Part shown: in pieces, positions 5,304-48,646 of the stretch
Numbering within the stretch: the first letter of the stretch is position 1
Layout: each line of letters opens with the position of its first letter
Source: Girardia tigrina
Lineage: Eukaryota
NCBI GenBank assembly: GCA_001938485.1
Contig: MQRK01248235.1
Coordinates: 69,287 to 121,398, forward strand
Direction: 5' to 3'
DNA length: 52,112 bases
Notes under the pieces: generated by a model
What the model was told of the DNA's origin: nothing
The model's database searches: none
What the model saw: only the letters and a program-made list of their open reading frames with translations
Translations under genes and position numbers: made by a program

Positions 5304-5331
5304 CGTGAAAGTCAATTGAGTTTGGTTAATA

Positions 5332-5727
5332 ATGAAATTTTATATTACATTTTTCCTATTTGTTACAATCATAGGAATATTCTCATGCTCAGATGCAACA
5401 AGTACGGCAGATCCATTAGCGTTCGGTCTGATTGTACTCATAGCAAACTGTGGTGTAACACGAACTTATATGATTCCGAAAAACGATTTAATGGTGCGCG
5501 ATAATGTCATGAATATTCAGGATATAGAAAGCATGAACAAATATGTTGATCCCAAAAACGGAAAACGATATTTTTCACCACGAATGGGCAAAAGATACTT
5601 TTCACCGAGAATGGGTAAAAGGTACTTTTCACCGAGAATGGGAAAAAGGCACTTTTCACCGAGAATGGGTAAACGATATTATTCTCCAAGAATGGGTAAA
5701 CGATATTATTTTCAAAGACTGGAATAA
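5332..5727 (+). CDS. Neuropeptide prohormone, PRXamide/pyrokinin-like (YFSPRMamide x3, HFSPRMamide, YYSPRMamide)
   Basis: Signal peptide MKFYITFFLFVTIIGIFSCSDA. Five KR-[Y/H][F/Y]SPRM-G-KR cassettes with dibasic convertase sites and Gly amide donors. The 27-bp units differ mainly at synonymous positions. From memory, it resembles planarian pyrokinin prohormone-like (ppl-1). Confidence 0.93.
   Translation: MKFYITFFLFVTIIGIFSCSDATSTADPLAFGLIVLIANCGVTRTYMIPKNDLMVRDNVMNIQDIESMNKYVDPKNGKRYFSPRMGKRYFSPRMGKRYFSPRMGKRHFSPRMGKRYYSPRMGKRYYFQRLE
5563..5724 (+). repeat. Six 27-bp coding tandem repeats
   Basis: AAACGATATTTTTCACCACGAATGGGC and five variants. Confidence 0.95.
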
Positions 5728-8661
5728 ATGAAACATTTTCTTTTTCATTATGAGAATAAAATTTTATTGATGTTTTTTTGAGAAACCAACTTTTATTTAC
5801 GAAACTTCTTACATTTCAATTTCTTCAAATCCAAGGTTTATATACCTCTCAAATCTCATTTATTTCTAATTTCCTTTAAACTGGTTTTATTTATCTACTT
5901 TAGACGAAATAGTAAATCGTCACAATGTCGTGTGCGTACAGATTGAGACATATTGGATGTACCATTCTCTTCATATAACTGGTCTGTGAAGATTTTAATA
6001 AAAATGTTTTACAGATTTGAATAAATAATAATAAATGATAAAAAGTATAAAAAATCTATAATATAAAATTCAAAGCGGAAAACTATGACCGTCGATCAGG
6101 AAAAGAAAAAAGCTCTAGAAAAAGAAGCTACTTGTGTCTAATTTTTTATTTTTGAATAACGTAAGGGACGACAGCTTTATAGTTAGGCCTAAAAGTTCAT
6201 TCAAGTTTGAATCTCTTTTTTTTTGGTTTATGATGTTGGACAAAATATTGCACTGAAATTCATATTACATTTCAAAATTAATGTTAATTTTAAATATTAC
6301 TATCGCTGTTGATATATTTTTATGAAGTGTAAGAACGAAATATGGTTCAGACACTTATTCATTAAAAACATTTATTTTCAGTTGTTTTTCAATTTAACAA
6401 TTTAAAATTTGTAAAACGAGTTACTGTTAAAAAATAAAAAAAAGTATATTAAGAAAGTAAAAAAACAGAATCTAAAACTCGGACAAACTTATAGTTTTAA
6501 GAAGGATAAATACAAATATTTTATTGGTATAATGTTTATTTACTTAAAATTCACCAAAAGAAGTCTAAGTAAGGATTCAGCGGTCCCTTGAAACCACATT
6601 CAGACAAAGATGTTGTTTCTTATTCCCACAAAACATGATAGTAATCAATATCACATAGAAATGGAAGACCTAATTCAAAGTAATTGAAATAATTTACTTT
6701 TTCTGATAATTATTATTGAAAAGGAAGTTTTACCTGAATCATGTGAATATCGAAGTTTAAAAAGCCCCAGGGTTACCAAATTTTGCATAATAAACAATAA
6801 ATAAAATGAAAATTGAATTTCCATCATCCAAATTTTATTTAATATCCATAAATTGTACTAATAGTTAAATAGTTTTCAATAAAGTGAGTCTGCACGTTCG
6901 TCTGAGAGTTAATTGTCAACACGAATCGCATAAGAAGCTTCGTTTCGACGTTTTTTTTAATAATTAAGTATTTCCTATATATTATTCGATAATTTGATTT
7001 CAATTGGAAAGAGATACGAAATCGAATTTTTTTCACCAAATTTGTCCAATAATCACAACGTTTCGATTCGATTTTTTTTAAATTGTGACAAAGTCACATA
7101 TATATGTAACATGCAAACATACACGCTTGAACATACACTCAACCAATCATTTATCACACATATACATGTTATCAATTTCTTTTAATCACATTTTTATTTC
7201 ACCTAATAAAAATTACACACACATCCACTCGATAAAAAAGTCACATCACTCGAATTGACAATAACTCATAATATTTTAATATTATAATCACATATTTATT
7301 GTGAAAGTCAACAAAATTCAAATAAAATCAACATTCTGGAAAAAGCGTAACAAGAAAGTTAAATCATTTATTCAATTTATTTAGTTATTTATTTTTTTAT
7401 TTAATTATTGTTTAATTTTTTTTAAGTTATTTAATTATTTAATTATCATCATGCTATCTCGACAAATGTTCTGTATTTTTTTACTTTCCGCTCCAATTAG
7501 TATGTATGTTTTTATTGATAATTGTAATGATTTAAATAATGTAATATGTGAATGGAATATAAAGGATCTCTCAAATATAATTATCATTCGAGAAACGTTA
7601 GAGCAATGTAAAGTTATTCGAAAGAATTAGGTGAAAAATGCGCTAAAAAATAACAATGCACTTCAAATTTGGAATCAATCTAGATAGTGTCAATCGTGAG
7701 AATATATCAAAATTTCTGAGATTTCCTTCGACATTCGCCGGTAATAAAATCTGTGTCGAATAAAAACTGTGACATGCAAATGAATGAGAACCAAAAGAAA
7801 ATGTACTATTGTATCAATAAGAATAAAATTGGGATTTTACCGGGATAAGCTGTCTTCAAGAGAACAACATCCAACAAAAACTCTTCAAATTCGCTACCCA
7901 CAAAACAATTATCATAGTTAAATAATTGTATATTACATCTCTCTCAATTTACTCGATGGAATGCATAAAATATTTTTTTCGTTATCAGATTTTTTATAGA
8001 TTAGATGAACAACTACTTAGGTTTTATTCGTTGATTTTCGATATTATTCTTTCGTGTAAACAAGTGAGGAGCGAGTAATTAATTTATACGTTTACACAAA
8101 TAACCAAATTCACTAAAATTTACACAATTAGGTTTTACATTTTTTTGAGAAATTCTTTCTCCAACAAATTTCGTAACAAGCAATATTTCACATCAAATTT
8201 TCAGTTTATAGTTTTATCGCTACATTGCATAGGATTATTGTTTGTGTAAATGTATTAATTAATTCCTGCGATAATAGTCATGCTAAGATTAACAATTACT
8301 ATTTTGAAAATTATGTCGTTTTTTATAATGTACAATAAAAATGTTTTTCTTAAATATAATAAAATTGTCTCCACGATATCAAAATTTGATTTGGGTGAAT
8401 TGAATAATTTTTATATTGAATCGGAACCTCCAAAAGAATGTCTCAAAGTTATTTATTATAATAAACAGGATATTTTCCAATCAGATGATTTGGTTTTGTT
8501 TGACGAAAATAAATGTGTCAGGAAAGGTAATCAGACTTAACTATTTGGTACTTTTTTCTTTGGGAGTAGATTAAAGGCACAGTTTACGTACAAATACTAC
8601 CTGCAACCTTGGCAGATTATAAAAAATAATAAGTGTTATAATTCTTACATTATAATTATAA

Positions 8662-9125
8662 TTCAGGGATCACCTGTGTGAGCCAGGCAGACATACTTCT
8701 ACCTAGTGTCCCTGAGTAACTAGATGGGTTTCGGCCCGTCTAGGCTAAAGTGTCTGAAAGCTAGCCGATATATTGCAGACATAGCCGGCATTATATTGTA
8801 TTCAGTGATAGGCCAGTAATCCATCAACTAGACTAAGCTATTAATCTGGGTGTGAAGACCGTGGGGAGAAGAGACCCCGCGGTCTATGGTTGGATTGCAC
8901 CGCAATGATCTGGGATGAATCAATCCCATTGAAGAGTGTTGTAATGACGTCGTTGTATTTTCGAACAGGATGAACTAAGGTATGGATCCCAACATTGGGG
9001 GAGTGCCCGTTGAGAACCATCAGCGTCCCAGGCCTCCTAAAGAGCCTCCGGCTCAATACCAGTAAAGGAGTTGAGGTGCACATTAGACAACAAGAAACCG
9101 AATGAAATCCTACGTATGAAACCTC
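8662..9125 (+). mobile_element. 5' end relic of a non-LTR retrotransposon (ribozyme, structured 5'UTR, start of zinc-finger ORF)
   Basis: GC-rich island starting at the ribozyme; hairpin at 8857-8884. ATG 8982 reads MDPNIGGVPVENHQRPRPPKEPPAQYQ*RS*GAH*TTRNRMKSYV, which has C2H2 spacing with stops at the two Cys positions. Confidence 0.6.
8664..8756 (+). ncRNA. HDV-like self-cleaving ribozyme fold
   Basis: P1 CAGGGAT/GTCCCTG; J1/2 hairpin CCTG/CAGG; P2 CAGACAT/GTGTCTG; P3 ACT/AGT; L3 TCTACCT; P1.1 CT/AG; P4 CTAGATGGGT-TTCG-GCCCGTCTAG; J4/2 GCTAAA with candidate catalytic C at 8745. Confidence 0.75.
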
Positions 9126-10299
9126 TAACTATAAAATGCAAATCTATTCCTCACAGCTCTTTTGATGAACACCCTTTATTATTAAAGAATAAAAGTGAAA
9201 ATGATAAATAAATTATACACATAAATGAATACAAAAAAACAATTTCTAACTAGACATTCATATTTAACAAGTCACATTTATTGTAAGATATATTAAAACA
9301 AAATTCTGCATCCAAGTTCTAATGTCCGGTCATAAAAATTACCTATTATCTTCCAAGTTTATCGGTCTCAGTACATTTTTAAAAATTTACTTCATTCCAT
9401 TAAATTCCTTCTATTATGAACATTAAAAATTAATTAATTATTTGCGAAATTAATTATGTTTAATTTTTATTTGTTTAAATGAGTAAAAAAGGATTTTTTA
9501 TATGTTTACAATTAAGAAATGAATTCTTAACGCATTTTTCTTTCATTTTTATCAACAAAGTCTGTTTCTATATAAACATTTGCTGTTATTTTTATTAATT
9601 AATTAAGATTTTCAATAAAAAATTCTTTAAATTTTAAAAAATTAATTATAAATAAATAATTCATTCAAATAAAAATTATTAATTAACAATGTAATTAAGT
9701 GAAGATATCAAATCATTTCCCATAAATTAGAAAAGTTACTCAATTTCATTCAATCTATAAATTGAAAAAGTCTGCAATTATAAAAACTAAACTCAATTTG
9801 AGTATCTTCTAGATTTGGATTCAAATGCGTAATTAGTTTTAAAAAAGAATTGTTAATAAAAGATATATGATGTACATATGAGCTGTTCAGTTTGAAAGTG
9901 ACATAAGTCAATTTTCAATTATTTCCAGTTGCTAGAGGTTCAATTCAGGTTTAATCCTGATCACCAGTTGAGACGACGGTTCCGTCACACAAAAGTGCAG
10001 AATTAAAAATATATTGCCGGATCGCACTGTAATTGTTGATGATAATTTCGCAAGTAAAAATTGATATAAATGTAAAGACCGAAATAACAAGAAAGCGAAT
10101 TTCACAATTTATTCTGTTAAGACTTTACAAATTGTCAATCTCCAACACACATTTAAAAAATTTCCAAATAATTGTTTGATAAAACAAATTATTATTATTT
10201 AGTTAACATTATTTTAATTTTTTATTGTTTAATTATTTTCCATGAGTACTCCACTGAGTAGATAAAATTTTGAACACAGATTTTCAGAATATATTTTAA

Positions 10300-10715
10300 A
10301 TTGCATTAGAACACAAATCCTTTAAATTCTCAATTTAAATATAAATTGACTTTCAAAATAAACAGCCAATATGTTCGTACGTACGCAGTTGCATTCGTGT
10401 ACTGTCCTAATCTAATTTACATTACTAGTGTAGCTCCCAATTTGAAAATCAGAAGAAATTTCTAATGGATTTAACCCCGGAACTATATCGCGAATCATAT
10501 GAAACAAATGGAAATGTTTCTTTTATTAAGGAGCAATGAATATATAACAGGCGATGCAAATTTAAATGTATCGTCAGCATACTACACATTAGATTCTAAC
10601 AAAATGAACACTCCAACTCTGTGTTGAAATCAACCCTGTGTTCTGATTGCCGAATTAAAAATATATTCCCGGATCGCACTATATTTGTTGATGATAATTT
10701 CGCAAGTAAAAATAA
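10300..10715 (-). mobile_element. Highly decayed MULE transposase fragment
   Basis: Fragments YADDTFKFASP (DGTF motif), LNPLEISSDFQIG (SDFE motif) and IGCLF. About 60 bp are duplicated at 10001-10061. Confidence 0.55.
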
Positions 10716-10886
10716 AATTACATTTAAACCCCTTTTAAAATTGTTTAGTTTTTTTTTGTCAGTGATTAAATGTGCCCGGTTGGTACATGAATGCATTTGA
10801 ACCATGTTTCGGGCCGAAGTCGTCCCAACATGTGTCATTATTTTCACAGGGGTTCCGCTAAGCCAGACACTTTCACTCAAACTCTA

Positions 10887-15418: not shown

Positions 15419-15987
15419 TTAGTCTATTTTTGGTGTCGCAATCATGTTGATAGATAAAAGAGCGACATCGATCGGAAAAATCAGATTCTTTATCAAATTT
15501 CGAATAACATCGAGAGATTGTTGATTTGCGGATTTATTCGGTTTCAAATTGATGTGACAATCGTGAATCATATTTTTAATCACAGCCGGTGGAAAGCATA
15601 GTTTTGTACTCGGATTCAACGTTTTACTAGTCAAAATTTTTGCGACATCTTTAATTAAATTATCCACCACAAATTGTCTCTTTTTCTCCGTCAATCCGAG
15701 CTCTCCTTTCTCCACTATAATTTTATAGATCTCCAAAAATATTCGTCGTTTGAAAAGCGCCTTTCTAATTGTCTTTGCTCGCGATTTCCGCTTTCGACAC
15801 ATTCGTGTAAATACGTTTGTTTTGCACAGTTTGGATTTGAAATTCAAGTTTTTTGTCGCCAAGCGATCACTTTATTCGGCAAATACGCTATTTTAAATTG
15901 ACGACGTTTTCTTTCGGTTTTTACGATTATTTTCACGTCGAAAACATTTGTCAATCGCTTTTGATTTGTCAGAGAAAATGATACCAT
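15419..15987 (-). pseudogene. SBDS: SBDS/Sdo1 ribosome maturation factor pseudogene (intronless)
   Basis: MVSFSLTNQKRLTNV...FKIAYLPNKVIAWR, IYTNVSKAEIASK and EIYKIIVEKGEL...LNPSTK...CHINLKPNKSANQQSLDVI match SBDS. At least two frameshifts plus an in-frame TAG; the C-terminal domain is missing. Confidence 0.88.
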
Positions 15988-16516: not shown

Positions 16517-19500
16517 TCATATCCTCAGATAATCATCCGACAACTCCTCTAAATGGTGTTCCTCGACCCACTCGATATCCTAAATTCTTGTAAATAAATG
16601 AAAATATTTGAATTGGTTTACATTCATTGAATATTCAGAACTCCAAGAATCACTAGGACTTGAACTCAGAGAATCTTCAGACATCTCTTGTTTATTAACG
16701 ATTTTCATGTATTCTTCATTCTGAAACGCGATTTCAAAAGAAATCTCAATTGATTAGACTAATAATAATACTGTTATCCATTCGATTTCAGTTTCATATT
16801 CAGTTTCAGAATCACTTATAATCTGCTGAGACTGCAATACTAAACTCTTGTCCATATATTCTATTGAATATTCGGATGATGAGGAGGAGTCTGATAAAGG
16901 GGATCTGAAGACATAAAATCAAGAAATGCAAAATATTAAATAATAAAAAAAGGTAACACTTCTGTGATATCACAGCCAAGTTCAGTCAACCTTATTTTTT
17001 ATTATATATAAACTCATAAATTTTTAGACGTTTTGAAATCTAAAACTGCAAAATATTTAAACACAATTTATAGAAATTTTATATTTTTTACAATTCAGGA
17101 AGTTGTGAATATTTAAAATTCAGATTTAATCTCATAAAAAACAAAGTATATATAAAGCTATTTTAAAACTGAATATAAAAAAATCGTGAAATACTTTGAT
17201 ATTTACTTATTTATCAATCTTTCTATTTACCTTTCAAAATAAACCCCATCAAATAACCGTTTTAAACATATTTTGAGGTCACTCAAACTCCTACAGCGAT
17301 TCGGTTTTTAAAATATTCAACATTAAGTCTGCTTTAATTTTTGAATTTCGGATTATTTTCAAAATGATATGGATTATTAAGTCGGAGGAACAATGATTAT
17401 CAATGGTAATTTGAATCTAAATGATTCTGAATAATAGCCACCATTTCAAACACATTTTTAGTCGCATTATGAGAGATTGTATTATGAATAATTTTTGACC
17501 CGTAATGCAGAATTATAGCAACTCAGTTCGCAAGTGACAACTTTTACTATGATTTTGACCAATCTGTGTAATTTTTCTTTGTTATTCTGCTTTTTATCTT
17601 ATTATCTAAAAAAAACATAATTTATGTCTATTTTAGAATGATGAGGAAATCTGTTCATCGTGAATCAACCATTGCACTCTACAAGAAGTGTGTAGCGGCG
17701 AACAAAATTATTAATCGATTATGAGTCAATAAAACAGTCGTTTCTCGAACAATGCAAAGGCATACTGAACTTGGAACAAGTGAAGATCGAAAAGGAAGGG
17801 ACATCAATCGTCAGTTAGAACAAAGAAGGCAATCAAGAAAAAATGAACCAAATTTCAACAATAATTTGAAATTTTTTGAATAGATGTGTTAAAGCACTTT
17901 TTTAAAAATTAAGCGTTGGACATGTTTCGATCATAGTTTCTGACCATCTTTAGTAACTTTATTTGTGTTGTATTGATTTTAAAAATTAAAATCCGTTTAA
18001 AAGTATATATGGTAATAAAAAATTTTAAATTAATATTAAAGTTTAATTTTATTGGTTAATATATATATTTATTTTATTTTTTTATTTATTTTTTTAATAA
18101 ACATTAATTTAATTTATTTTAAAGATATTTAATATTTAGGCTGCTTTACTTTTCCAATTTTGGATATTGAGCAATGGGTTATAGTGTCTTCTTAGCAATG
18201 ATTCATAATACAACCTCTAATAATGTGAATCAAAATTCTTCTGAAGAATAGAAAATTCATCTTTAGAAATAGATGAAGTTCTTTCTTTGCAACATCTGCA
18301 GTGATCAAGAACCTTACTCGTTTTACTTGACTGAGTGTTCACTAATCCGTGTTTCGAGATGATGATTTGTCTCTCCAATGTACGAGTTTTTATATCCGTG
18401 ACAGTTAAATCACAAGTTAAAACACAAGATTAGCTTTCACTAAACTGAAAATTTAGTTGAACGATTAAGACACTCAAAACAAAATTTATTAAACATGGCT
18501 GATTGGGCAACGAGTATTGCCTTGCAAAAGAATGCCATTACGACAGTCTTAATAGCTTGATTGTAACTGTCAAAATTCTGATAATAACGTTCCGCATTGA
18601 TAGTTTTTTCCGGTTAGTAACAAATTCTAATGAATTGGTCAAGTTCTGTCCCAAAAGATCACTACCATTGCTTTCAGCGTAAATCGATTTGGATGTAGTC
18701 AAAAATCTTTAGCCAAGTCTTAACTTGCCAAATTCTGAATCTATTTCGTTTCTTCAATGATAGATTTTGCTTGGCCTTCCGGTTTTTGATTGATCATAAA
18801 AGTTAGTGTTGTGTTCAGTGAAATTGGTTAACCATCATCATTACACTATTCCTTTACTGAGACAACTTATCAATATTTCGTATTAATCATGTTTGCGGTG
18901 GCGATTTTAATATTATGATTGAATTCAAACAAATTGTGAATGAACCTGTTTTGATGGTTTCGACAGATACACTGTTGGTTTACTGATAAAATTTATTTAG
19001 CAACTACTTTGACAACTTACAGTGGCTTGCAGTTAACTGTAATTCATGCCAATATTTAATTGATTTTCACTTGATTTTGGTTATATTTTTCTGGATTATT
19101 AAATGTAAAATGAAAAAGTAAGATTTTTATTATACATTTATTATAATATATACAAAAATATTTACAAAAACCGTTTTTTCATTTAAAAAATCACCGTTAA
19201 TATCTTTTTTCAAGAAACAGGCATTGAAAAATTTCTTGACATGACATTTTGACTTGACATTTCTGTCTGTTTTCTTCTTTTGCGCTTCAGCTTCAAATCG
19301 GCCGATATATTCAAATCGCAGCTCTTTGACTCGGTCAGAATTCTTTTCTTGAACGGAGCCCTTGATTTTCTTTACCATAATTAATTTTCCCGTGAAGAAT
19401 CTTGAAATTGTAGATTCAGATACATTGATTTCTTTGGTGTCTTGCATGTATCTCTTCATTTCTGCCAATGTTGACTGAGGATTTTCTTCAACATAATCCA

Positions 19501-22500
19501 CGATAAATTGACCTACTTCATCGTTAATTATCGGCTTCCTATGCCCTCCATATTTTCATACTGAAATTTGGCCGGTTTTACCATATTTATAAATTATATT
19601 TTTGGCTGCAGATTTGGAAATGTCCAATTGCCTTGCCAAATTGAGAAAATCTTCTGATAGACGATAGGCTCTAATTAGCCTTTTTGTCAATCTTTGATAT
19701 CCGGCAATGAAATTATTAATTATATTTCAAATTTTCTAAAAATCATGTTTTTCGAGTCTTTTTTTCGCGACAAGGCTCCGTGCTTTGAGTGTCGTCAGAC
19801 ATACTGCTGAAATTTTTTAAAATAAATTATATTTATTAGTAGTATACCTTAATGCATTGTCAGTAGCACTGTTAATGTTGGAAAATTCGAAATTAAACAT
19901 ATTTTTTTAATTTTAAATTCTTACTCTTAAGTGACGATAAATCGAGTGTGTATCAGCCGTGTATCAGTTTGTGTATGCATGTATTGTATGTATGTATGGT
20001 GTGTATTAGGTTAAGAGATTTTTTTCTATATTTAACACTACTGTTAAGTGCAGATAGCTATTTTTATATTCTGCTTACAATTATTTTATGATTTTTTATT
20101 GGCTATATATTTTTAGATGGCCAATTTTTATATGGAATTCTGAAACGAAGTAGAGAATCATTACTCTTAACTGAAAGCAACTGTAAATTAACATCGACTG
20201 ATATCTTTTTTTATTTGTTCTAATAAATTAGTGTATTAACAAAAATTAGTTTAACATCTAATAAATATTTAAACATTCGAATATCGATTGTGTTAAAAAT
20301 AATAAAATCAAACTAACATTTCTTTTAACTGAGCATTGCGAGGACTGACAAAATCAATGGATTCAGAACTAGTGCTACTTTCGGGAGACCGTTTAATACT
20401 TTGTGAACTTTTGGACAATGATAAAGGTGACTATAACGTAAATAAATGAAATTATAAACCAAAAATAGTAATGTTCGAAATGTAATTTCATTATGTAAAA
20501 ATGTAAAATAATCAATTTTCAATATCCAAGAAACGTAATAAAATCTGTTACATAACTGAAGTGGAACGAGAAAAGCTCAATTGGGTTAAAGTCATTAATA
20601 CAACTGATAAAAGCTGCCTATGTTTAATGCTCATGAAAGTTGGGCAGAATCGAGTTTTACTAACACAACTTTTTAATTTTCAACTTTCTTTTACACTAGT
20701 GCTTCTACCCTCCTTGATTTTGGCCTGTTAGGTCTTTTGATAATTGAAAGTTTCATCTTTTTTGTCTGAATAGGTTTTAAATTAATGTTATGTATTCGTA
20801 ACCAGACTAACTACATTGTCCTTACAAGAGATTCGAAATAAGTATTCCATTATTTAATATTCGAATATATTTGCCTGTTTTTAACTATTTGATATTCGAA
20901 TACTTTTATTAAAAAAATATTTTTATGATGTCATCTGTGAACTGAATGGATATAATTTCAGAGCATGATGTTAGCGCACTCCAAAGTCTTGTTAAAAATG
21001 AATCAAATCTTATAACAGTTGAAGGAGTTTATAAATTTTTATTCGATAAATTGGAGCTTCTACAAACTGAGATAAGCCAAAAACTACTAGACGTTATTAA
21101 AAGTAGGATGGAAGAGAAAATAGATCCTATTTTAACGATACTTCTAATACACCCCGATTCAATTTTTTTGCAATTCACAAAATATCTAGTTTCTCAACAA
21201 TCTATATATAATGTTATATATCATTCGATAGGGAATTTAAAACTACATATTAAATATTCAACACATCTTTGTTTTAACGTATTACTTTAATTGTCTTTCC
21301 AATTTTGCATTTTTGAAAGTTGTAAATCGATTCAAAATTTTTGCATTAGTAATAAAAGTAAGCTGTTGTTTTTAATTTTAAAACTATATTAGTAATTTCA
21401 TTTTTTACAAATCATTAGATGACTTTATCATCTGAATTACGAAATTTAATTTATGAAAAATTAAGGGAGAACATGACCAAAGTCGACATTGCTAAGGCAT
21501 ATAATGTAAGTTTAAGAACCGTATATGGCATTCAAAGGCAAGGAGTAGAACCCAAACCTTCTGTTAAACGTTCGAAGAACGCTAGGAAATCAAAAGAAGT
21601 TGTTAGAAGGGCTGTTAATGCATTCAAAATGAAAAATNNNNNNNNNNNNNNNNNNNNNNNNNNNNNTAAAATTATTACACCTTTCTCTAAAAGTACTGTG
21701 AGACGAAACTTAATCTCACTAGGTTATAAATATGTTCCTAGTGTATGTTCCATAATTTTAAGTGATGCTCAAAAAAACAGCGCGTGAAAATGGCTAGAAG
21801 CTACATAACGCAGCGCATTGATTTTCATAAAGTAGTATTTACTGATGAATCTCGTTTTTCTTTGGACGGTAATGATAATTATCATACCTGGTCAAAAAAC
21901 TCACGACCTATTGNNNNNNNNNNNNNNNNNNNNNNNNNNNNNNNNNNNNNNNNNNNNNNNNNNNNNNNNNNNNNNNNNNNNNNNNNNNNNNNNNNNNNNN
22001 NNNNNNNNNNNNNNNNNNNNNNNNNNNNNNNNNNNNNNNNNNNNNNNNNNNNNNNNNNNNNNNNNNNNNNNNNNNNNNNNNNNNNNNNNNNNNNNNNNNN
22101 NNNNNNNNNNNNNNNNNNNNNNNNNNNNNNNNNNNNNNNNNNNNNNNNNNNNNNNNNNNNNNNNNNNNNNNNNNNNNNNNNNNNNNNNNNNNNNNNNNNN
22201 NNNNNNNNNNNNNNNNNNNNNNNNNNNNNNNNNNNNNNNNNNNNNNNNNNNNNNNNNNNNNNNNNNNNNNNNNNNNNNNNNNNNNNNNNNNNNNNNNNNN
22301 NNNNNNNNNNNNNNNNNNNNNNNNNNNNNNNNNNNNNNNNNNNNNNNNNNNNNNNNNNNNNNNNNNNNNNNNNNNNNNNNNNNNNNNNNNNNNNNNNNNN
22401 NNNNNNNNNNNNNNNNNNNNNNNNNNNNNNNNNNNNNNNNNNNNNNNNNNNNNNNNNNNNNNNGTGAATATAACGTCTAATAGACATTTAAATTAGCTAT

Positions 22501-37200: not shown

Positions 37201-40200
37201 AAAGTGATTAAATAATAGCTTATAAAAAAGTATATATTTTGTTAGAATATTAGTATAAATTTACTTATACAAAAATTAAAACAATTACCTTTTCAATAGA
37301 TTTTTCTGAACAAATTCAATGTTAAATAAAATATAAATAACAACAAAATAATACTTTGAACAATTATTTCATTATTAATATGTTTACTCTCAGATGGACC
37401 TAATCTCGGAAAACTTCGAATCTAAAATATTTCCCCGTAAATATCATCATTAACTTATATACAGAATACTTTGTCATTTGAAAGTCTTTTACTTTCACTT
37501 CTAATATTTTTATTTGAATCCATTGACTCAAGTAATTCCTTCCATAATTCCGATGTAAAAATACGGGCATTTTTATAAGAAAGAAAACCGGACAAATTAG
37601 TCTGTATTTCTCGTGGGTCTGGATACTATGAATTGCATTAAAAATATTTTTAGAAAATATACGAAAATGATTTTATTTAGAAGTGATTGATTTTTTATAC
37701 CAATCATATCATTATTTTAAAGATTTTTACTTATTTTACACATAAAAAACATATTACCATTAATGGAATGACCAGCGAATAGTGTCCTAAACAATACACA
37801 TAAACATAAGGGTTCTTAGCCTTTGAAAATTACTTGTCTGTTTGTCGAAAATTTAAAAATTCAAAAAAACATATTTGACAACCTATTAGACTAAGAATGT
37901 CTTTAAGATAAAAAATATTTACCTAAGAAGACGTTCATACTACAGTGCGTTCAGAAAGTCACTGTGCACCTTTAATTGTCTGGTTTATTTTTAGATAATC
38001 AGCGTTGTAGCAGACTTTTTAAATGCAAATTTCTATGAAATCGAACTATGAAATAGATTCGTGAACAAAAAACATACCTAAACACTTTGACCTTGACACT
38101 GAGCGTTTTACATTTTTTTAAAAAAAAATATCATTTTGATATTCAATCTAATCATTGACGAAAGTCAATTTATTGCGAAGTTAATTCCAATTGAAAATGG
38201 TTTTGTCAACGGAGGAGAGAATATTTTTGATTGAACATGTCTTTCGTGCGAATGATGAATACACAGAAGCAGTGAAGGAAAAATTTGCCGAAAAGTTTCC
38301 CGCAACAGCAATACTTCATCGAAATGCAGTTCGAGCGTTAGTGAACAAGTTCAGAGAAACTAGATCCGTTCATGATTCCTCCCGCTCAGGTCGACCAACG
38401 ATTTTAACGGAGCAAAAAGTCAAAGTTATTTCGAAAACCATGAGCCAGAGTCCAACAAAGTCAATGCGCCGTTTATCTCAAGAAGTGAGTGTATCCGTTG
38501 GAACTGTACATGCCGCCGTGAGGAAAACGTTAAGCTTATATCCATATCGTGTTACTTGTCAACATGAGTTGAAAGACACAGACTTTGAAAAGCGACTCCA
38601 GTTTTGTCATTGGTTGAAGGAAAATCTGAATGAGGATGACATGCTCGACAAGACTTTTTTCCGATGAAGCGTGGTTTCATTTGTCTAGATATGTGAGTAG
38701 CCAAAATTCTCGAGTTTGGTACAGTGAAAATCCGCATGAATTTGTTGAGAAGCCTCTGCATTCCTTGAAAGTTGGAGTATGGTATGCCATGTCCAGGAGG
38801 CGTGTAATTGGTCCCATCTTTTTTTACTGAAACCATAACATCAGAAAGGTACTGCAAGGAAATCCTTTTTGCTTTCATCGACCAGTTAACTAAAGAAGAA
38901 CGATCGACTGGCTATTTTCAGCAGGATGGTGCAACAGCNNNNNNNNNNNNNNNNNNNNNNNNNNNNNNNNNNNNNNNNNNNNNNNNNNCATCGACCAGTT
39001 AACTAAAGAAGAACGATCGACTGGCTATTTTCAGCAGGATGGTGCAACAGCACATACCGCAAACATTTCGCTTCGTTTTTTGAATGAGATCTTCCCGAAG
39101 AGAATCACTTCCAAAGGAATTTGGCCGCCAAGATCCCCAGATCTAAGTGTTTTGGACTTTTACCTGTGGGGAGCGATAAAGCAAAAGGTTTACCGAAACA
39201 AACCACAAACTTTGCAAGACCTACGTGATAAAATCCTACACCAAATTGAAGCCATCATCCAAGAGTAAATTCATCGAGTGTTCGAAAACTTGAAACGTCG
39301 AATTAACGTTTGTATTCACGAACTTGGTGGGCATTTCCAGCAGTTGTTGTGACTCTTTTCTTGTTATTTTTAATAAATTAAGAGACGGTCATTGTTCTTC
39401 ACATAAAATTGACTATGCAAAATATTTTGTTATTGATTTTTAGAACACAGGATATCGTTCTTGTTTTGAAATTGCAGGTGCACAGTTACTTTTTGAACGC
39501 ACTGTATTTAAAATCTTGTACAATTGAAAGGTCAATAAATTAAATATCCCAGCGACAAGTCATAACAGTGTAACGTTTATGTATCGGAAAACAAATATTT
39601 CTTAGATCAGATTTTATGATAGAAAACGGTGGAATAAACTTTCTTAATCTTTCCAAATTAACAAAAAACAAGAATGAATCTAGACTCAATTCATCGGATA
39701 TTTACCTTAAATTTGAAAAGATGCAAAAAGATTAAGCTATTAAATATAAAGCTTCTTTAAAAAAATGTTGTCTAAATCAGTGTTTCTTAACTTTTTTGTA
39801 TAGGGACCGTTATTATCACGGACTAGTTATTACAATTATATCGAAGATATGAAGCATTATTGGATTGTTTTGTGGTATTCTGGGTATTTCTCTACTTAAA
39901 AGACAAAATTTAGTATTTCGGCAAGTGAAAGTGCATGATTTAGATGATTCCGTGACAATTGCGTAAAGTTCATTGAGTCCATGACAATACGTAAAGACAA
40001 TTGCGTATATCATAAAAACACAAAAAAGCTAAAATTCATTGAATATTCCACCATTTGTTGTATTATTATAACATCAATTTACACATTTTATGATGCACAT
40101 ACAGTTTTGGCCATGGCATTAGAAATTTTACAAATTAAATGATATTAAAACCATTATGTATAATAAAATTATGTATATAATAAATGAAATTTAATAAATA

Positions 40201-43200: not shown

Positions 43201-46200
43201 TAGAGCTCTCAGAAATATTTATTTAAAAAGTTTTATGGTTTATAAACACAGGGGCATGGATGGCACATGAACTCTTAATGAATACATGACTTAAATGTTT
43301 TTAGATGTTTTTTTTAGAAAGGAGAAAAGATAAGTTTTGATTTTTATTTACCACGCGCCAGTTCACAACATTAATATGGATAATAAGCTTACAAATAAGA
43401 TAATAAGCTTATAAAAGTTGCATGCCCTTCATAACCTATGCACTCGCATAGTTAGGAAGAAACACAAGATGGAAAATATCCATATGAACATCCTGGACAT
43501 TGGACTCCCACATCCCATGGATATTATCGCGAGTAAAAGGTTTACTTTCCACAGTAAGACGGAAACTTCAGAAGATTACGAGACAATCAAACGAATCTGG
43601 AGGGGAGAAATAGAGATGGGAAAAAGGATCAGTGGGAGGAAGAAACACTCAAACTCGAAATGCCTTCGAGTAGACATACAATTGCTATTTGGGAATGATG
43701 CGGTGTATAGATATTTCATTAACCGCATCGTTAACAGAGACCTTACTGTATCGAGGGAAGCATACATAAACTCCTTAATTCGATCCGGAAGACTCAATAG
43801 GACAAGAACAATTGTGCCGAAGCTGATCAACGAGAGAGATAAACGTCACCAACGTCCAGTAGAAAGTTGCTACAAGGAGTTTGCCGAAAAAAAGGAACTG
43901 ATCAGATACATGAAAAGGGACCACTGGGTGTCCGCTTCCGCTAATCCTGATCAGTCCAACGAGACACAACAACATCAATTACCATTCCTATGTACACTAT
44001 GTAAAAAGTCGTACAAAACGAAGGGGTGGCTGGCCAGGCACCTCTACCTGGATAATAAATTGGAGGAGACAGAAGAAATTGGAAAACCAACAATGACACC
44101 AGCGCAAACCAGTAAAAAAATAGCACAGAGGAAAGAGTCGTAGAAAACCTCAACATTCCTGGTGACCAGATTTAATCCGTGACGGTCCCCCCGACTATCT
44201 CGACAGCGGTGGAGGAAGCGATAGATACTGAAGAAACACATCTGACTTTTAGGATTGCAGATCTAACTGCAAGGCAGAGTTCAGATGTCCCTTTCGCGGC
44301 TGTACGAAGTCCACAAATACAGCCAAAGATATGCAGAACCATTGTTATACAACCCATGGGTGGTCGTTTCTCACAGGGAAGCCGAAAAGATCTCGGAGAC
44401 CGAAACTATCCGACCCAGTAGGAGGCCTATAGGGGGCTGTTAGTGATTCTTTAGTTTGGGTGGACCCTCTAAAGAGATGGGTGGCCAACATGTGCCAGAG
44501 AATTGTAAAGAATTGCCCAAAATATCATATAAGTAAATTATATGAAATATATTCTTTAATTTGTTACGTAATTAATATTTAGGTTAAGATTTTTTCTATT
44601 TCCTTTGTTGAGTAGAAGACAATATGTCTTTCAAGAAGAGATCTTCTAACGTGGAGAAAACAGAGGAAACCTGGACGAAGAACATAATGCAGTTTCAAGC
44701 GTCATCAAGAAGATGCAGTGAAAATTTATGAAGCACCCTTAATTGAACGGAGTCGCATGTCTCTGAAAAGCCACGTCATTGGACGCATTGAATTTCTTAA
44801 ATGTAAAAGCTCAAACAATCGCAGAAGGACTCAAAGATGTGTTAGAAGAGTTTAACCTGTAAGTATCAATTGTGATGATTGTTACCGACACAACAAACCT
44901 GAATACCGGAAAGAAGACGAGCATTCTTGTTCACCTTCAGCAAACCCAAGTTCATCAGTTGCCAGTATCATGTGCTATATCGGATTCTTCGAATTGTCAT
45001 GGACGATGAGTTCAATGGGTCAACTAAATCACCAATTTAAGAAGGAAAACAATGTTGGAGTTATAAATAGTATAAGCTACCATAAAAGGTATGGAAGTTT
45101 TTCCTTTTACCATTCTCATTAAGAAAAATCACGGTGGAATAAAATCCCGCTTTAATTCATTTTTCCCGCATTTATCGCTGTTTTACAAAATTTCCCGCAC
45201 GGTCTGGCATCACTGGAAATCACCAATCATCGAGCACTTCTTTGTGCAGGATTTGATGTTCACTTATGATAAAACCGTAAAACTGAGATTAAAGAAACAG
45301 GAGCCTTGAGAGACGACATGAAGTTTCTCTGTCACCACACTCGTGTCTTCCGACACTTCACTGAGAGGAAAGACATCCCCTTCGTGAATTTTAAACAGAT
45401 TCCAAACATCAGCAATGCACGCTAGAACTCTCGTGCCATTCTAGCCCTTCTTGCGTTTATTCTGATGCCTGAAACCGGGAACAGGTTGCGTAAAATTTGT
45501 TCATTTATTTCTTACTCTTGGGTTGACCACTAGTTCAGCAGTCAATTGATCCACGCTGAAGATTTTGAAGATATATCTGTAGCGCTGATTGAGTACCCAA
45601 AGGCTCTCAAATGATTTTAAAGCCACTGGAAAACAGATTAATCTCCAATTAACATTGCCCGAAGTAACCAATGTTGTAAGAGTATGATTTTAGTTGTGCA
45701 AGATTTGCACAACTTCGGCCGCAACAATGACAATCTACCACTGAGATTCATTCTCTCCAATGACAAAATCGTGAATATTGGACTTCCTTGATTGTTTGAT
45801 GGTTCTATATATTGTTGTATATATGAATGATAAATACAATTTTTGAAATCATTTTGTACGCGAGGTTTTTTATCAAATCATCTAGAATATAAGATTTATC
45901 TAATCTTACATGAAAACCCATCCATACAGGGAAATGTTGTATAAAAGTAATCACCCTAGTGTACACTTTAGAGAGATTTTATGTATAAATAATTCTGAGA
46001 ATGACTGCATTTAATAAGTTCAATGACATCAAAATTGAATTTATGATAATATCAATTATTTATGTAAGCTAAATCCACCAGTATATATATATATATAACT
46101 ACTTGAGGCTCTAGTTGATTGCATATGTAATCAATTAAAACTTCATCTTCGTGTTTTATCAGCTCGATTATCTGTCTGCTAATCCACGGCCGCACGGCCT

Positions 46201-48646
46201 CGAGGTCCACTCGTTCCATGTCCACCTAATACGCATTATTTATCATTCTATCGCAACAAATTCGCTAATCAAATATTTAATTTTCTGAATGCTAATTTGA
46301 TAGTTTTGACAAATTATTTAGTCAAAGTTCTTTTAAGAAATTGGTCATCGAACATGTTTCACCGTTTTGAAATTTATCATCAGCAGTTATAATTTAATTT
46401 GTAAAATATTTAAATGTTAGTTTTAATAGAAAATTCAAGTTTTTGATTTAAAGATATCTTTGGATAATAATGACAAAATGTTTTATTATTTAATTAAAGA
46501 TTTGGAATGACCTTACTTTATCAATTTTGAACGTTTATTAATGGAGCATCCATTAAGGACGTCCCCTTCTAAGGGATGGAGGGGGTCACCACAAGGGGGA
46601 CATTTGGGGACAATAGGGAGTGGTGTCCAATTGTTAAGGGGACATCCCCCAGCAGCGCCTTTCATTAAAATCTAAAGTTAAATTTCAACTATCGTTTATC
46701 TTGTCATTTTTGTAAGATTTTCTGTTAGAGATTGATGTAATACTCAAAACCCCTGTTATCTGAATTCTATTTTCCCAATTCTTTTATAATAATTAAGTCA
46801 TTTATTTTTTCTTTAGAAATTATGTACATTTTCGTTATTTTAACAATATTTGATTTTTTTATTCTATTTTTTAATATGTGACTTAAATTACAGCCAAAAT
46901 AAAATTATATACAAGCTAATCTTTAAAGCTTCAATGTTATATACATTCTTCTAAATATAAGGGAAATCTGAAAGGGACAAGAGGGGGGAGGGGTCAAAAT
47001 ATGCTTATTTTTTATAGGACGTCCTTAATGGATGCTCCCTAATGGGTTTTAGTGTCGTATTACAAATGATTCAGAAAACTAAATCATTTTGTGCATCAAA
47101 AGCCTTCTGTAAAACAAAAACTCATTCTTTAAATAGAAGAGATACTATTTTTACTATTGTAACTAATGATCAAGAACCTTACTTGATCGACTTGATTGTG
47201 AATGCTCTCTAACCATGGTTTTGAGATGACGAGTTTGTAATTTGTCTTACAATTTTGAAACCACAAATCATGGTTTAAATCTTCTTAGAGTACGATTGAG
47301 GGATAACAAGTACCCAAACAAACAGGTATATCAAAACATTAAGGTTTCATTGTAAAAAATATGTACACAAACACGGATTAAGGAAGGATTAAATGAAGAA
47401 AACATTGAAAATCACACACAAATAATCAAAATACCATGTTATGAAGGATTTAAACAATTTAAGAAGAGTACTTGCAAGAATATTAGTGTCAAAGTGGTTT
47501 TAATAATATCTAAAGCTCAAAACTTCCTCTCGAATAAATTGAAAACGATTGTCGATTGCAAACTAATCTGGTTTATAAATTTGATTGTCACTGGTATAAA
47601 AACGCGTACATTAGAGAGTATTCATTAGTTACATTGGAACCTAAATTGGAGGAGGCAATTAGAAATTGGAGAACCAACAATGACACAAGCGCAATAAATA
47701 ACACAGAAGAAAGAATCGAAGAAAACCTCAACATTCCAGGAAACCAGAATCAATCCGTGACGGACTATCTCGATGACAGTGGAGGAAGCGATAGGCACTG
47801 AAGAAACACATCTGACTTTTACGATTACAGATCTAAAAGCAAGGGGAGAGTTCAGATGTCCCTCTCGCGACTGTACGAAGTCAGGGAATACACCCAATAC
47901 AAGCCATTGGTGGTCGTCTCTTACAGGGGGGCCGAAGAGATATCTGAGACCGAAACTATCCGACCCGTAGGTAGTCTATCGAGGGGCTGCTAGTGATTCT
48001 TTAGTTTTGGTGGACTCTCTAAAGAGCCTAGAGGCTCAATACCATTAGAAAGAGATGGGGGATCATATTTCAGAGACAAATCGTCATCTAAATACCCGGA
48101 TTAGTGAGCATTCACAATCAAGTCAACCGAGTAAGACTTGGTTACATTATAAATCTTCTGTTTCAAAGAATGAGTTTTCTGTTTTACAGAAGGCCTTTGA
48201 TTCATACTATGAGCGGCAATTTCGTGAATTACTATTAATAAGAAACTACAACCCAAAATGGACAGAGTAAGGCCATTCCAAATCTTAAATTAAATGATAA
48301 ATATTTTGCCATTATTATCTAATGATATCTTGAAATAAAAACTTAAATTATCTATATCTAATATTAAAATAAACATTTAAATATTTGACAAATTAAATTA
48401 TAATTGCTGATGATAAAGTTCAAAGTTTGTAAGAATGTTCAATGATCGATTTGTTAAAGAAACCTTTGACTAAATAATTATTTCAAATAGAAATCAAATA
48501 TTTTTTTTATTTTTTCACGTCTAACGAATTCAAAGAAAGAAATCTTATTAAAAATTGATATTTCACTCAGAATAAATTTCAGCGAAACAACAAACCCGAT
48601 TATTGAGTATTTCATCAAATTTCATATCTTTGGACACCTTTGTCAT
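16517..48646 (-). CDS. SRRM1: PWI-domain Ser/Arg-rich splicing factor, SRRM1-like (12 exons, about 521 aa)
   Basis: Exons 48646-48596, 46225-46103, 37625-37470, 37421-37388, 37305-37289, 27368-27032, 24008-23797, 23748-23521, 20430-20318, 16904-16772, 16720-16622, 16579-16517. All introns are GT-AG with matching phases (1566 nt total). PWI domain: MKFDEILNNRVDMERVDLEAVRPWISRQIIELIKHEDEVLIDYICNQLEPQYPDPREIQTNLSGFLSYKNARIFTSELWKELL, followed by an RS/S-rich region. The start codon and the joining of distal exons are less certain. Confidence 0.8.
17640..17850 (+). mobile_element. Tc1-like HTH fragment
   Basis: NKTVVSRTMQRHTELGTSEDRKGR. Confidence 0.4.
19270..19700 (-). mobile_element. IS630/Tc1-like transposase N-terminal fragment
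   Basis: LARQLDISKSAAKNIIYKY...GGHRKPII...YVEENPQSTLAEMK...VSESTISR (two HTH motifs). Confidence 0.65.
20826..23204 (+). mobile_element. Decayed hAT element (hosts a nested Tc1)
   Basis: Imperfect TIR (C/A)AGAGATTC; 8-bp TSD GTCCTTAC/GTCATTTC (6/8 match); TATTCGAATA subterminal repeats; hAT dimerisation-like tail ERVFSTADAIKTK...ETLNSLIFLK. Confidence 0.7.
21198..22532 (+). mobile_element. Tc1-like element, partly within an assembly gap
   Basis: Imperfect ~35-bp TIRs (CTATATAT..AATGTTATAT.TCATTC.ATAG). ORF from 21419 with HTH, SKSTVRR and VVFTDESRFSLDG. Confidence 0.8.
24272..25513 (-). mobile_element. Full-length degenerate mariner inserted in (TA)n
   Basis: TIRs TAGGTTGAATCATAAGTAACTTCC / GGAAGTTATGTGTGACTCAACCTA. 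Motifs IITCD, NIHGKKILLCVWWD, HYNARSH, HPPHSLDLVPTDYHLF, GINKL. Confidence 0.92.
25759..25801 (+). ncRNA. Minimal type-I hammerhead ribozyme (Penelope pLTR type), one core substitution
   Basis: GAC-CTGAAGA-T-GACGA(ttgat)TCGTC-GAAG-TATATT-GTC: stems I and II intact, GAAA changed to GAAG. Preceded by a remnant resembling a GIY-YIG end (AIN.FNPKMN). Confidence 0.7.
27032..27368 (-). CDS. SRRM1: SRRM1-like Ser/Arg-rich exon
   Basis: 112 open codons (RTRSRSRRRSK..., SSSSSSSS) with a polypyrimidine AG acceptor and GTAAGT donor. Confidence 0.8.
28405..28600 (-). mobile_element. Tc1/mariner catalytic-domain fragment
   Basis: VNRYNCRAFWG...VQSSPKVNV. Confidence 0.45.
29149..29474. mobile_element. 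hAT-like MITE
   Basis: Exact 8-bp TSD ATCATGAT (29141-29148, 29475-29482); ends CGGAGTTT.../...AAACCCTG; internal TACACCCA repeats. Confidence 0.75.
36869..37076. mobile_element. Tc1/mariner-type MITE
   Basis: ~30-bp TIRs TATGAGCCG...AAAGTGGCCTAA / TTAGGCCACTTT...CGGCTCATA with TA flanks. Confidence 0.8.
37470..37625 (-). CDS. SRRM1: SRRM1-like exon 3 (PWI C-terminal half)
   Basis: YPDPREIQTNLSGFLSYKNARIFTSELWKELL matches SRRM1 PDSKMMQINLTGFLNGKNAREFMGELWPLLL. Confidence 0.92.
37943..39504 (+). mobile_element. Near-complete IS630-Tc1-mariner element (rosa/Visitor-like, DD38D), inactivated
   Basis: ~29-bp TIRs CAGTGCGTTCAGAAAGTCACTGTGCACCT and TA TSD. Transposase 38197-39352 with RSGRP, FSDEAWF, FQQDGA and WPPRSPDLSVLDF; two frameshifts and one premature stop. 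Confidence 0.95.
41161..41381. mobile_element. piggyBac-like MITE
   Basis: TTAG-CCCGTTCG ... CGAAGGGG-TTAA (CCC/GGG ends, TTAA-like TSD). Confidence 0.5.
43418..44520 (+). mobile_element. 5'-truncated RTE-like LINE (RT C-terminus plus C2H2 zinc fingers)
   Basis: LHNLCTRIV...IKRIWRGEIEMGKRISGRKK is typical of RTE RT C-termini; C2H2 finger FLCTLCKKSYKTKGWLARH. Confidence 0.65.
44620..45958 (+). mobile_element. Decayed hATm-type transposon
   Basis: IVTDTTNLNTG, CQYHVL, NISNAR*NSRAI and RSNQCC; right end ATCACCCTA is the reverse complement of the TAGGGTG TIR typical of hATm. Confidence 0.65.
46103..46225 (-). CDS. SRRM1: SRRM1-like exon 2 (PWI signature)
   Basis: VDMERVDLEAVRPWISRQIIELIKHEDEVLIDYICNQLEPQ flanked by AG and GT. 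Confidence 0.92.
46346..46388 (-). ncRNA. Degenerate minimal hammerhead (inverted pLTR arm)
   Basis: Minus strand AACTG-CTGATGA-TAAATTTCAAAACGGT-GAAA-CATGTT-CGAT: core intact, stems eroded. Confidence 0.5.
46542..47039. mobile_element. PIF/Harbinger (Tourist-like) MITE
   Basis: 22-bp perfect TIR GGAGCATCCATTAAGGACGTCC; TAA TSD (46539-46541, 47040-47042). Confidence 0.9.
47620..48060 (+). mobile_element. Second RTE-like 3' fragment, inserted into the Penelope GIY-YIG motif
   Basis: Clearly homologous to 44055-44480 (AAATTGGAGGAG, GAAGAAACACATCTGACTTTTA, GACCGAAACTATCCGACCC); splits the AYI|xETNRH motif. Confidence 0.8.
48403..48443 (+). ncRNA. Degenerate minimal hammerhead (3' pLTR)
   Basis: ATTG-CTGATGA-...-GTAAGAATGTT-CAAT: stem I ATTG/CAAT intact, GAAA core mutated. 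Confidence 0.45.

What the first reader, a model, noticed from the sequence alone, without database searches (positions are those of the whole stretch)
8664..8756. HDV-like ribozyme with a covarying P1.1 (CU/AG) at the exact 5' boundary of a retroelement relic
Seen: every helix of the nested double pseudoknot can be drawn (P1 7 bp, J1/2 hairpin, P2 7 bp, P3 3 bp, 7-nt L3, P4 10 bp with UUCG loop). The linkers AGUAAC and GGCUAA match the pattern of retrotransposon HDV-like ribozymes. The predicted cleavage site (5' of 8664) coincides with the switch from AT-rich host DNA to the GC-rich element. Unusual: P1.1 is CU/AG instead of CC/GG (a compensatory pair), the +1 base is C paired with G rather than a purine, and the L3 G25 equivalent is C. 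Known: R2, RTE and L1Tc LINEs use HDV-like ribozymes to define their 5' ends. Inference: this is either a new ribozyme variant or a decayed copy of one.
Basis: partly seen in the sequence, partly recalled or inferred. Interest (0 to 1): 0.7.

Follow-up and report, generated by a model that had tools for sequence, protein, structure and literature searches.

The report
Ribozyme-headed short retroelement, mutated copy
A 416-base jumping element with hundreds of copies in this animal genome starts exactly at the predicted cut site of an HDV-type self-cutting RNA; two of its odd features are shared by the whole family and have published precedents, while the third is a private mutation that likely inactivates this copy.

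Summary
The fold is real: a strict descriptor hits only 8664-8756 in the window and 0 of 1000 shuffles. It heads a 416-bp ORF-less element (8664-9079) with at least 664 3' ends in the genome. 14 of 20 loci chosen by their 3' end start at C8664. P2 covaries across subfamilies, and CU/AG versus CC/GG covaries with sister elements. C+1 and CU/AG are family traits with precedents (L1Tc ribozyme; Rfam RF02682 consensus; 2026 crystal structures). The L3 'G25' C is private: 51 of 54 copies have G, and U/C at this pair is among the inactive HDV combinations, so this copy is probably dead. A likely partner is an APE-RT-zinc-finger LINE with a canonical HDV ribozyme, a shared 3' hairpin and the same target motif (GTGT-N9-T^AC). 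Cleavage is untested. The scan already noted this kind of element on other DNA of this genome. Verdict: new member of a known kind (NARTc/SIDE-like), with a possible one-base shift of the cut site.

The parts
8633..8636 (+). Upstream half of the target motif (GTGT at -14 to -11 from the first base of the target duplication); host DNA
   Evidence: G/T/G/T at -14..-11 in 20/18/19/14 of 26 insertion sites; coordinates
8647..8652 (+). Left target-site duplication (6 bp, ACATTA), preceded by TT; shorter than the usual 10-14 bp
   Evidence: T at -1 in 25 of 26 sites
8653..8663 (+). 11 extra AT-rich bases at the 5' junction (repeat of the adjacent ATTATA unit); its last 3 bases can extend P1 into the P1.1 strand
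   Evidence: sequence; MFE with flank pairs them with 8715-8717; origin by slippage is inferred
8664..8756 (+). HDV-like ribozyme fold; predicted cut 5' of C8664
   Evidence: descriptor; pair counts on 28 distinct family rows, 98.4% of cells paired
8699..8716 (+). P1.1: C8699-G8716 and U8700-A8715
   Evidence: U/A 56, C/G 59, C/A 1 among 116 distinct cores from three families
8703..8703 (+). G25-equivalent position, C in this copy only
   Evidence: G 51, A 2, C 1 of 54 full-length copies
8745..8745 (+). Predicted catalytic C (C75 equivalent)
   Evidence: C in 53 of 54 copies; role inferred from HDV
8757..9027 (+). Non-coding body of unknown origin
   Evidence: no ORF of 80 aa or more inside it on the + strand; no tblastn match to the LINE protein (best E 0.59) and no blastn match to 5 LINE loci; no tRNA
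9028..9081 (+). 3' tail: GAGCC/GGCTC hairpin (9042-9054) inside a longer predicted stem, ending GTGC(AC), no poly(A); homologous to the LINE 3' end
   Evidence: 27 of 31 nt identical to LINE 3' ends, E 1.5e-5 in that small search; alignment
9080..9085 (+). Right target-site duplication (ACATTA); its AC is also the element's invariant last two letters

Best explanation
This is one copy of a multi-copy, 416-bp, protein-less retroelement whose first 93 bases have the pairings of an HDV-like ribozyme that likely cuts the element's RNA out of read-through transcripts just before C8664, and this copy is probably inactive because it has lost the family's G25. Shown: family, fixed 5' end, target duplications, covariation, shared 3' tail and target motif with an APE-RT-zinc-finger LINE. 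Inferred: host or tandem read-through transcription; self-cleavage 5' of +1; recognition of the 3' hairpin by the LINE protein; nicking at GTGT-N9-T^AC with the RNA's terminal AC matching the target, reverse transcription to the 5' end, and an 8-16 bp duplication.
For: Copy number: 664 matches to the 3' end and 757 to the ribozyme core, controls 0. Fixed start: 14 of 20 loci picked by their 3' end begin at +1 (one is a duplicate of another), 2 within 6 nt, 3 are 5'-truncated, 1 is cut by a contig end; +1 is C in 44 of 47 junctions with differing flanks, and lies outside the duplication in 26 of 30 copies with a duplication of 9 bp or more. Structure kept across subfamilies: 98.4% of cells paired, 4 pairs with changes on both sides (3 in P2, 1 in P1.1), versus 14-52% paired for slid controls. 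Across this family, a sister short family (495 cores) and the LINE (563 cores), L3 position 22 and position 38 are U/A 56, C/G 59, other 1; the inner P3 pair is U/A 58, C/G 57, other 1. Core bases U20 54/54, C75 53/54, A78 54/54. Partner: 1179 LINE 3' ends; single loci link its ribozyme to APE and RT (L184) and to the zinc-finger end (L193); a 1145-aa intact relative, 95% identical over the RT piece, exists in public assemblies. Short elements and LINE sit head to tail at the same sites. G25: in antigenomic HDV only four mutant combinations at the U23/G28 pair kept activity and U/C is not among them (PMC3386971 passages); G25A abolished cleavage in the C. briggsae ribozyme (PMC13635239 passages).
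Against: No cleavage or RNA 5'-end data: the four runs laid were contigs only and showed no start sites. Rfam gives no hit for this family (0 hits on 5 short-element loci); only the LINE's ribozyme scores, below gathering. The CC/GG to CU/AG change is probably one or two evolutionary events, not 56, and the loci were picked by patterns that contain these positions. The number of pairs with two-sided change is only marginal against shuffles (22 of 500). Position 39 is T in 5 of 54 copies (one sub-lineage), which breaks C21-G39. Homology to the LINE is limited to about 31-50 nt at the 3' end, so another related LINE may be the true partner. This copy's duplication is only 6 bp.
Confidence: 0.8

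Rival explanations
1. The fold is inherited, but the fixed 5' end is set by an internal promoter (as for Pr77 of L1Tc, or a Pol III B box), and cleavage is dispensable or falls one base later.
For: L1Tc's first 77 nt are both promoter and ribozyme (PMC3383444 passages). 10 of 54 copies carry an exact tRNA-type B-box word in P4 (the consensus word is recalled). The sister family starts at G with a 6-bp P1.
Against: Subfamilies without the B-box word, including this one, also amplified. ARAGORN finds no tRNA in 7 of 7 loci. Compensatory changes in P2 and P1.1 and a conserved catalytic core would not be expected if only a DNA promoter mattered.
Confidence: 0.12
2. This very copy is an active ribozyme variant that tolerates C at the G25 position.
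For: All helices and the catalytic C are intact; only 2 differences from the subfamily majority lie in the ribozyme (8679, 8703). R2 ribozymes tolerate much active-site variation (PMC3774820 section 16).
Against: C is seen in 1 of 54 copies; this copy is the most diverged of 19 in its subfamily (6.0% vs mean 3.8%); U/C at this pair was inactive in HDV; the flank can extend P1 over the P1.1 strand, an effect reported to reduce L1TcRz activity.
Confidence: 0.07
3. The double pseudoknot is a chance drawing on a GC-rich repeat.
For: No Rfam hit; MFE z-score only -1.63.
Against: 0 of 1000 shuffles; covariation; the fold starts at the element's first base in three related families.
Confidence: 0.01

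Closest known systems
NARTc / L1TcRz of Trypanosoma cruzi (PMC3185411, PMC3383444; passages read)
   Same: Short non-autonomous element with an HDV-like ribozyme at +1 and a short 3' part shared with its LINE; cleavage mapped 5' of a C at +1.
   Different: Partner here is a single-ORF APE-RT-zinc-finger LINE in an animal; the head is not near-identical to the partner's (no blastn match); P1.1 has two pairs rather than one; no poly(A) tail.
[quoted passage not shown]
   Same: Ribozyme head plus a LINE-recognised 3' end is enough for propagation; target duplications; head and tail can have different origins.
   Different: Dispersed in hundreds of copies at a loose bipartite motif rather than one rDNA site; APE-type partner.
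Bipartite ORF-less derivatives of RTE, Ingi, Vingi and R2 LINEs (PMC5786205; abstract and passages read)
   Same: 5' end of LINE type with predicted ribozyme, 3' end of LINE type, no ORF.
   Different: The 270-nt body has no detected LINE source, so simple internal deletion of the sampled LINE is not shown.
Rfam RF02682 HDV-F-prausnitzii, and C. briggsae / Ackermannviridae HDV-like ribozymes (PMC13635239; passages read)
   Same: The RF02682 consensus printed has the same L3 (UCUACGU) followed by AG after P1, i.e. the CU/AG P1.1; the crystal structures have a U:A pair in P1.1 and cleave fast.
   Different: RF02682 starts with G; it is bacterial and not described as a retroelement head. This family does not score against the model.
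RTE-related SINE/LINE insertion signature (PMC6007223; abstract read)
   Same: A second motif about one helical turn from the cut, and a match between the element's 3' letters and the start of the duplication.
   Different: Here the motif is GTGT rather than a T stretch, duplications begin with AC, and there is no microsatellite tail.

Membership tests
HDV-like ribozymes | Nested double pseudoknot P1, P1.1, P2, P3, P4 | tested here: met
HDV-like ribozymes | Catalytic C in J4/2 (G-C-N-A-A context) | tested here: met
   C8745; 53 of 54 copies
HDV-like ribozymes | U20-G25 pair in L3 (family) | tested here: met
   U20 54 of 54, G25 51 of 54
HDV-like ribozymes | U20-G25 pair in L3 (this copy) | tested here: not met
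   C8703
HDV-like ribozymes | Covariation supporting the pairings | tested here: met
   P2 within the family; P1.1 and P3 across three families; few independent events
HDV-like ribozymes | Match to a curated Rfam HDV model at gathering score | tested here: not met
   the LINE's ribozyme reaches only 25-32 bits
HDV-like ribozymes | Metal-dependent self-cleavage 5' of +1 | not testable with these tools
   needs an in vitro assay
Bipartite non-autonomous LINE derivatives (NARTc, SIDE, RTE-N type) | Dispersed copies with target duplications and no ORF | tested here: met
Bipartite non-autonomous LINE derivatives (NARTc, SIDE, RTE-N type) | 3' end shared with an autonomous LINE | tested here: met
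   27 of 31 nt plus shared hairpin
Bipartite non-autonomous LINE derivatives (NARTc, SIDE, RTE-N type) | 5' end derived from the same LINE's 5' end | tested here: inconclusive
   same ribozyme layout and P4 base but no blastn similarity
RTE-clade LINE (the partner) | Single ORF with APE then RT directly behind a short 5' UTR | tested here: met
RTE-clade LINE (the partner) | RT groups with labelled RTE references in a tree | not tested
   no labelled references came; the RTE label rests on architecture and recalled motifs, and the C-terminal zinc fingers are atypical by recall
tRNA-derived Pol III SINEs | tRNA-derived head with A and B boxes | tested here: not met
   no tRNA in 7 of 7 loci; B-box word in only 10 of 54 copies and not in this one

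The most novel reading that the evidence does not exclude
These elements record a natural one-base shift of an HDV ribozyme's cut site. The sister family starts at G with a 6-bp P1. Gain of a 5' C extended P1 over the next G, moved P1.1 one register along the GGG run, and the CC/GG to CU/AG change then locked the new register; intermediates with C+1 and CC/GG survive (L148, L127). The whole group is mobilised by a zinc-finger LINE that reads a bipartite site (GTGT-N9-T^AC) and preferentially lands in the catalytic motif of Penelope endonuclease genes.
Probability: 0.35. Interest if true: 0.6.

Novelty: new member of a known kind. Interest (0 to 1): 0.36.

Why it matters
As it stands, it adds an animal example of a ribozyme-headed, protein-less retroelement and shows that structure searches demanding a purine at +1 and CC/GG would miss a family of hundreds of copies. 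The three related families give a natural set of variants (G1-U with CC/GG; C1-G with CC/GG; C1-G with CU/AG) for testing how free the HDV cleavage-site pair is and how a cut site can shift. The partner LINE's two-part target motif could interest people who engineer targeted RNA-templated insertion. The window's own copy is probably a dead passenger.

Tried and rejected
Rfam at gathering score and at E up to 10: nothing relevant in the window; the weak R2_retro_el match (E 7.6) is chance. Search for a LINE with exactly this 3' end: all 16 exact matches and 20 of 664 loose matches sampled were short or truncated short elements. tRNA/Pol III origin: rejected. G25C as a family variant: rejected. 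RNA evidence: 4 of 5 listed runs laid; all were contigs, they hold pieces of related copies, but show neither start sites nor transcription. Host lineage: a literature search for the window's neuropeptide motif found 0 occurrences in the 8 papers listed; I leave the host as an unnamed invertebrate. A search for flatworm RTE/HDV papers gave 0 papers with all five terms. Webb and Luptak 2011 and Ruminski et al. 2011 are not held, so their ribozyme catalogues were not seen and could contain this variant. A published statement on the purine preference at +1 was sought but not read; that preference is recalled. No supplements were read; Figure S7 of PMC4035085 and Figure S2 of PMC3774820 list P1.1 variants and may bear on novelty.

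Full report
Observation. A descriptor requiring P1 (7 bp), P2, P3, a 7-nt L3, a 2-bp P1.1, P4 and a C-N-A linker finds one site on both strands of the window, 8664-8756 with C8745; it finds none in 1000 shuffles of the surrounding 617 nt and one in 15 shuffles of the window. Rfam has no gathering-score hit in the window and nested folding alone is unremarkable (z -1.63).

The element. A search of the own genome returned 40 scored matches of 1271 candidates, nearly all starting at or within a few bases of 8664. Alignment shows a unit of about 416 bp ending in GTGC followed by AC, without poly(A). Pattern counts give 664 3' ends and 757 ribozyme cores. The first 30 loci were chosen by likeness to the 5' end and are biased, so I took 20 loci by their 3' end: 14 begin at +1 (two of them are the same place assembled twice), 2 within 6 nt, 3 are truncated and 1 ends at a contig edge. 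Among 47 distinct junctions +1 is C in 44 and T in 3; in 30 copies with a duplication of 9 bp or more, +1 lies outside it in 26 and directly abuts it in 21. The C is therefore carried by the element. In the window the duplication is only ACATTA (8647-8652, 9080-9085) with 11 extra bases before +1.

The three oddities. (1) G25: 51 of 54 full-length copies have G, two A, and only this copy C. It is one of two ribozyme differences from the subfamily majority, and this copy is the most diverged of 19 (6.0% against a mean of 3.8%). In antigenomic HDV all combinations at the equivalent U23/G28 pair were tested; four mutants kept activity and U/C is not among them (PMC3386971, passages). G25A abolished cleavage in a nematode HDV-like ribozyme (PMC13635239, passages). 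This copy is probably inactive (inferred). Its flank can also extend P1 over the P1.1 strand. (2) CU/AG: it is family-wide (position 22 U and position 38 A each in 53 of 54). One copy, L148, has CC/GG. A sister short family (495 cores) and the LINE (563 cores) have CC/GG. Over 116 distinct cores the two positions are U/A 56, C/G 59, C/A 1; these loci were picked by patterns covering the site and represent few events. The Rfam RF02682 consensus has the same L3 followed by AG, and U:A pairs in P1.1 occur in two fast, crystallised ribozymes. (3) C+1: family-wide; L1TcRz cleaves 5' of its C1 by primer extension (PMC3185411, passages; that C1 pairs with G is my reading of the text, figure not seen).

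Structure across subfamilies. On 29 rows that I chose from the 54 to span subfamilies (28 distinct), 98.4% of cells pair; three P2 pairs and one P1.1 pair change on both sides; slid controls pair at 14-52%; 0 of 500 shuffles reach the covariation score but 22 of 500 reach the number of two-sided pairs. P4 varies in length while its base stays paired. One sub-lineage (5 of 54) has T at position 39 and keeps a single P1.1 pair.

The likely partner. Copies often sit head to tail with another repeat whose 3' end has 1179 matches. It encodes APE, RT and C2H2-like zinc fingers in one ORF; L184 links its 5' end to APE and RT, L193 to the zinc-finger end, and an intact 1145-aa relative is on record. 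Its 5' end is a canonical HDV-like ribozyme (G1-U, CC/GG) that scores 25-32 bits against two Rfam HDV models, below gathering. It shares 27 of 31 nt and a GAGCC/GGCTC hairpin with the short element's tail. The 270-nt body of the short element matches neither its DNA nor its protein. I call it RTE-like from architecture; no labelled tree was built.

Target site. In 26 insertion sites of the two short families (36 resolved; 10 Penelope-site or tandem sites left out) the bases are G, T, G, T at -14 to -11 in 20, 18, 19, 14, T at -1 in 25, and the duplication begins with A in 26 and C in 21; lengths are mostly 11-13 bp. The window's site fits. 12 of 47 family junctions (13 by the loose pattern, one being the window's own site), 11 of 30 LINE junctions and 1 of 21 sister-family junctions are at one position of a Penelope-type endonuclease motif, of which 2382 unoccupied sites were counted against a rough 1-3.6 x 10^5 plain motif sites extrapolated from the window. 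Several families and subfamilies are involved, but co-amplification of some junctions is not excluded.

Mechanism. Shown: fixed 5' end at the predicted cut site, conserved pairings, duplications, shared tail and target. Inferred: read-through transcription, self-cleavage before +1, binding of the tail by the LINE protein, target-primed reverse transcription. RNA-type contigs from four runs hold pieces of related copies but cannot show ends or transcription.

Possible register shift. In the sister family the T before the G run belongs to the duplication in 9 of 10 well-resolved copies, so that element starts at G with a 6-bp P1 followed by GGG. In this family an added C pairs with the first of those Gs, and only that 7-bp register makes CU/AG complementary. 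Intermediates with C+1 and CC/GG exist (L148, L127). The order of events is not rooted, and one-base shifts of P1 and P1.1 between predictions are mentioned for R2, so this stays a hypothesis.

Comparison and verdict. It works like NARTc and the R2 SIDEs, and fits the bipartite ORF-less LINE derivatives described for RTE, Ingi, Vingi and R2 (PMC5786205, abstract and passages). I found no paper on this family, but two key catalogues were not available. The scan noted similar elements elsewhere in this genome. Verdict: real, a new member of a known kind; this copy likely dead; interest 0.36.

Noticed in passing
window 43358-44600 (+), and 47755-47967 (+): Relics of a related APE-RT-zinc-finger LINE: tblastn to the partner protein E 4e-32, 1e-13 and 2e-5; the first ends in a shortened version of the shared 3' tail.
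   Followed up: partly
window 5320-5727 (+): ORF for a neuropeptide-type precursor with repeated FSPRM-G-KR units; weak Pfam PBAN match (E 7e-4); motif not found in the papers listed.
   Followed up: partly
window 15419-15871 (-): Exon-like piece matching SBDS domain II (E 6e-16).
   Followed up: no
window 38185-38667 (+), 19130-19555 (-), 21766-21910 (+): Tc1/mariner-like transposase relics (weak HTH hits for the first).
   Followed up: no
window 9996-10076 and 10648-10728: 81-nt direct repeat, 88% identical, 652 nt apart.
   Followed up: no
L078, L071, L075, L081, L056, L083 (P4 of the ribozyme): An exact tRNA-type B-box word sits in P4 of 10 of 54 copies; absent from this copy's subfamily. 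Chance or a captured Pol III signal.
   Followed up: partly
L124-L153: Second ribozyme-headed short family (about 310-350 bp, 495 cores) with canonical CC/GG, a different body, a similar 3' fold and the same target motif.
   Followed up: partly
L026, L049, L069, L075, L154, L159, L172, L137 and others: Repeated insertion of all three families at one base of a Penelope-type endonuclease motif (IGETNRHL follows the site).
   Followed up: partly
L023, L050, L066, L080, L083, L002, L125, L067: Head-to-tail arrays of the same or different family members separated by one duplication unit, i.e. re-use of the same target.
   Followed up: partly
L068, L070, L073, L083, L117: Sub-lineage with T at position 39, leaving only the U-A pair of P1.1.
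   Followed up: no
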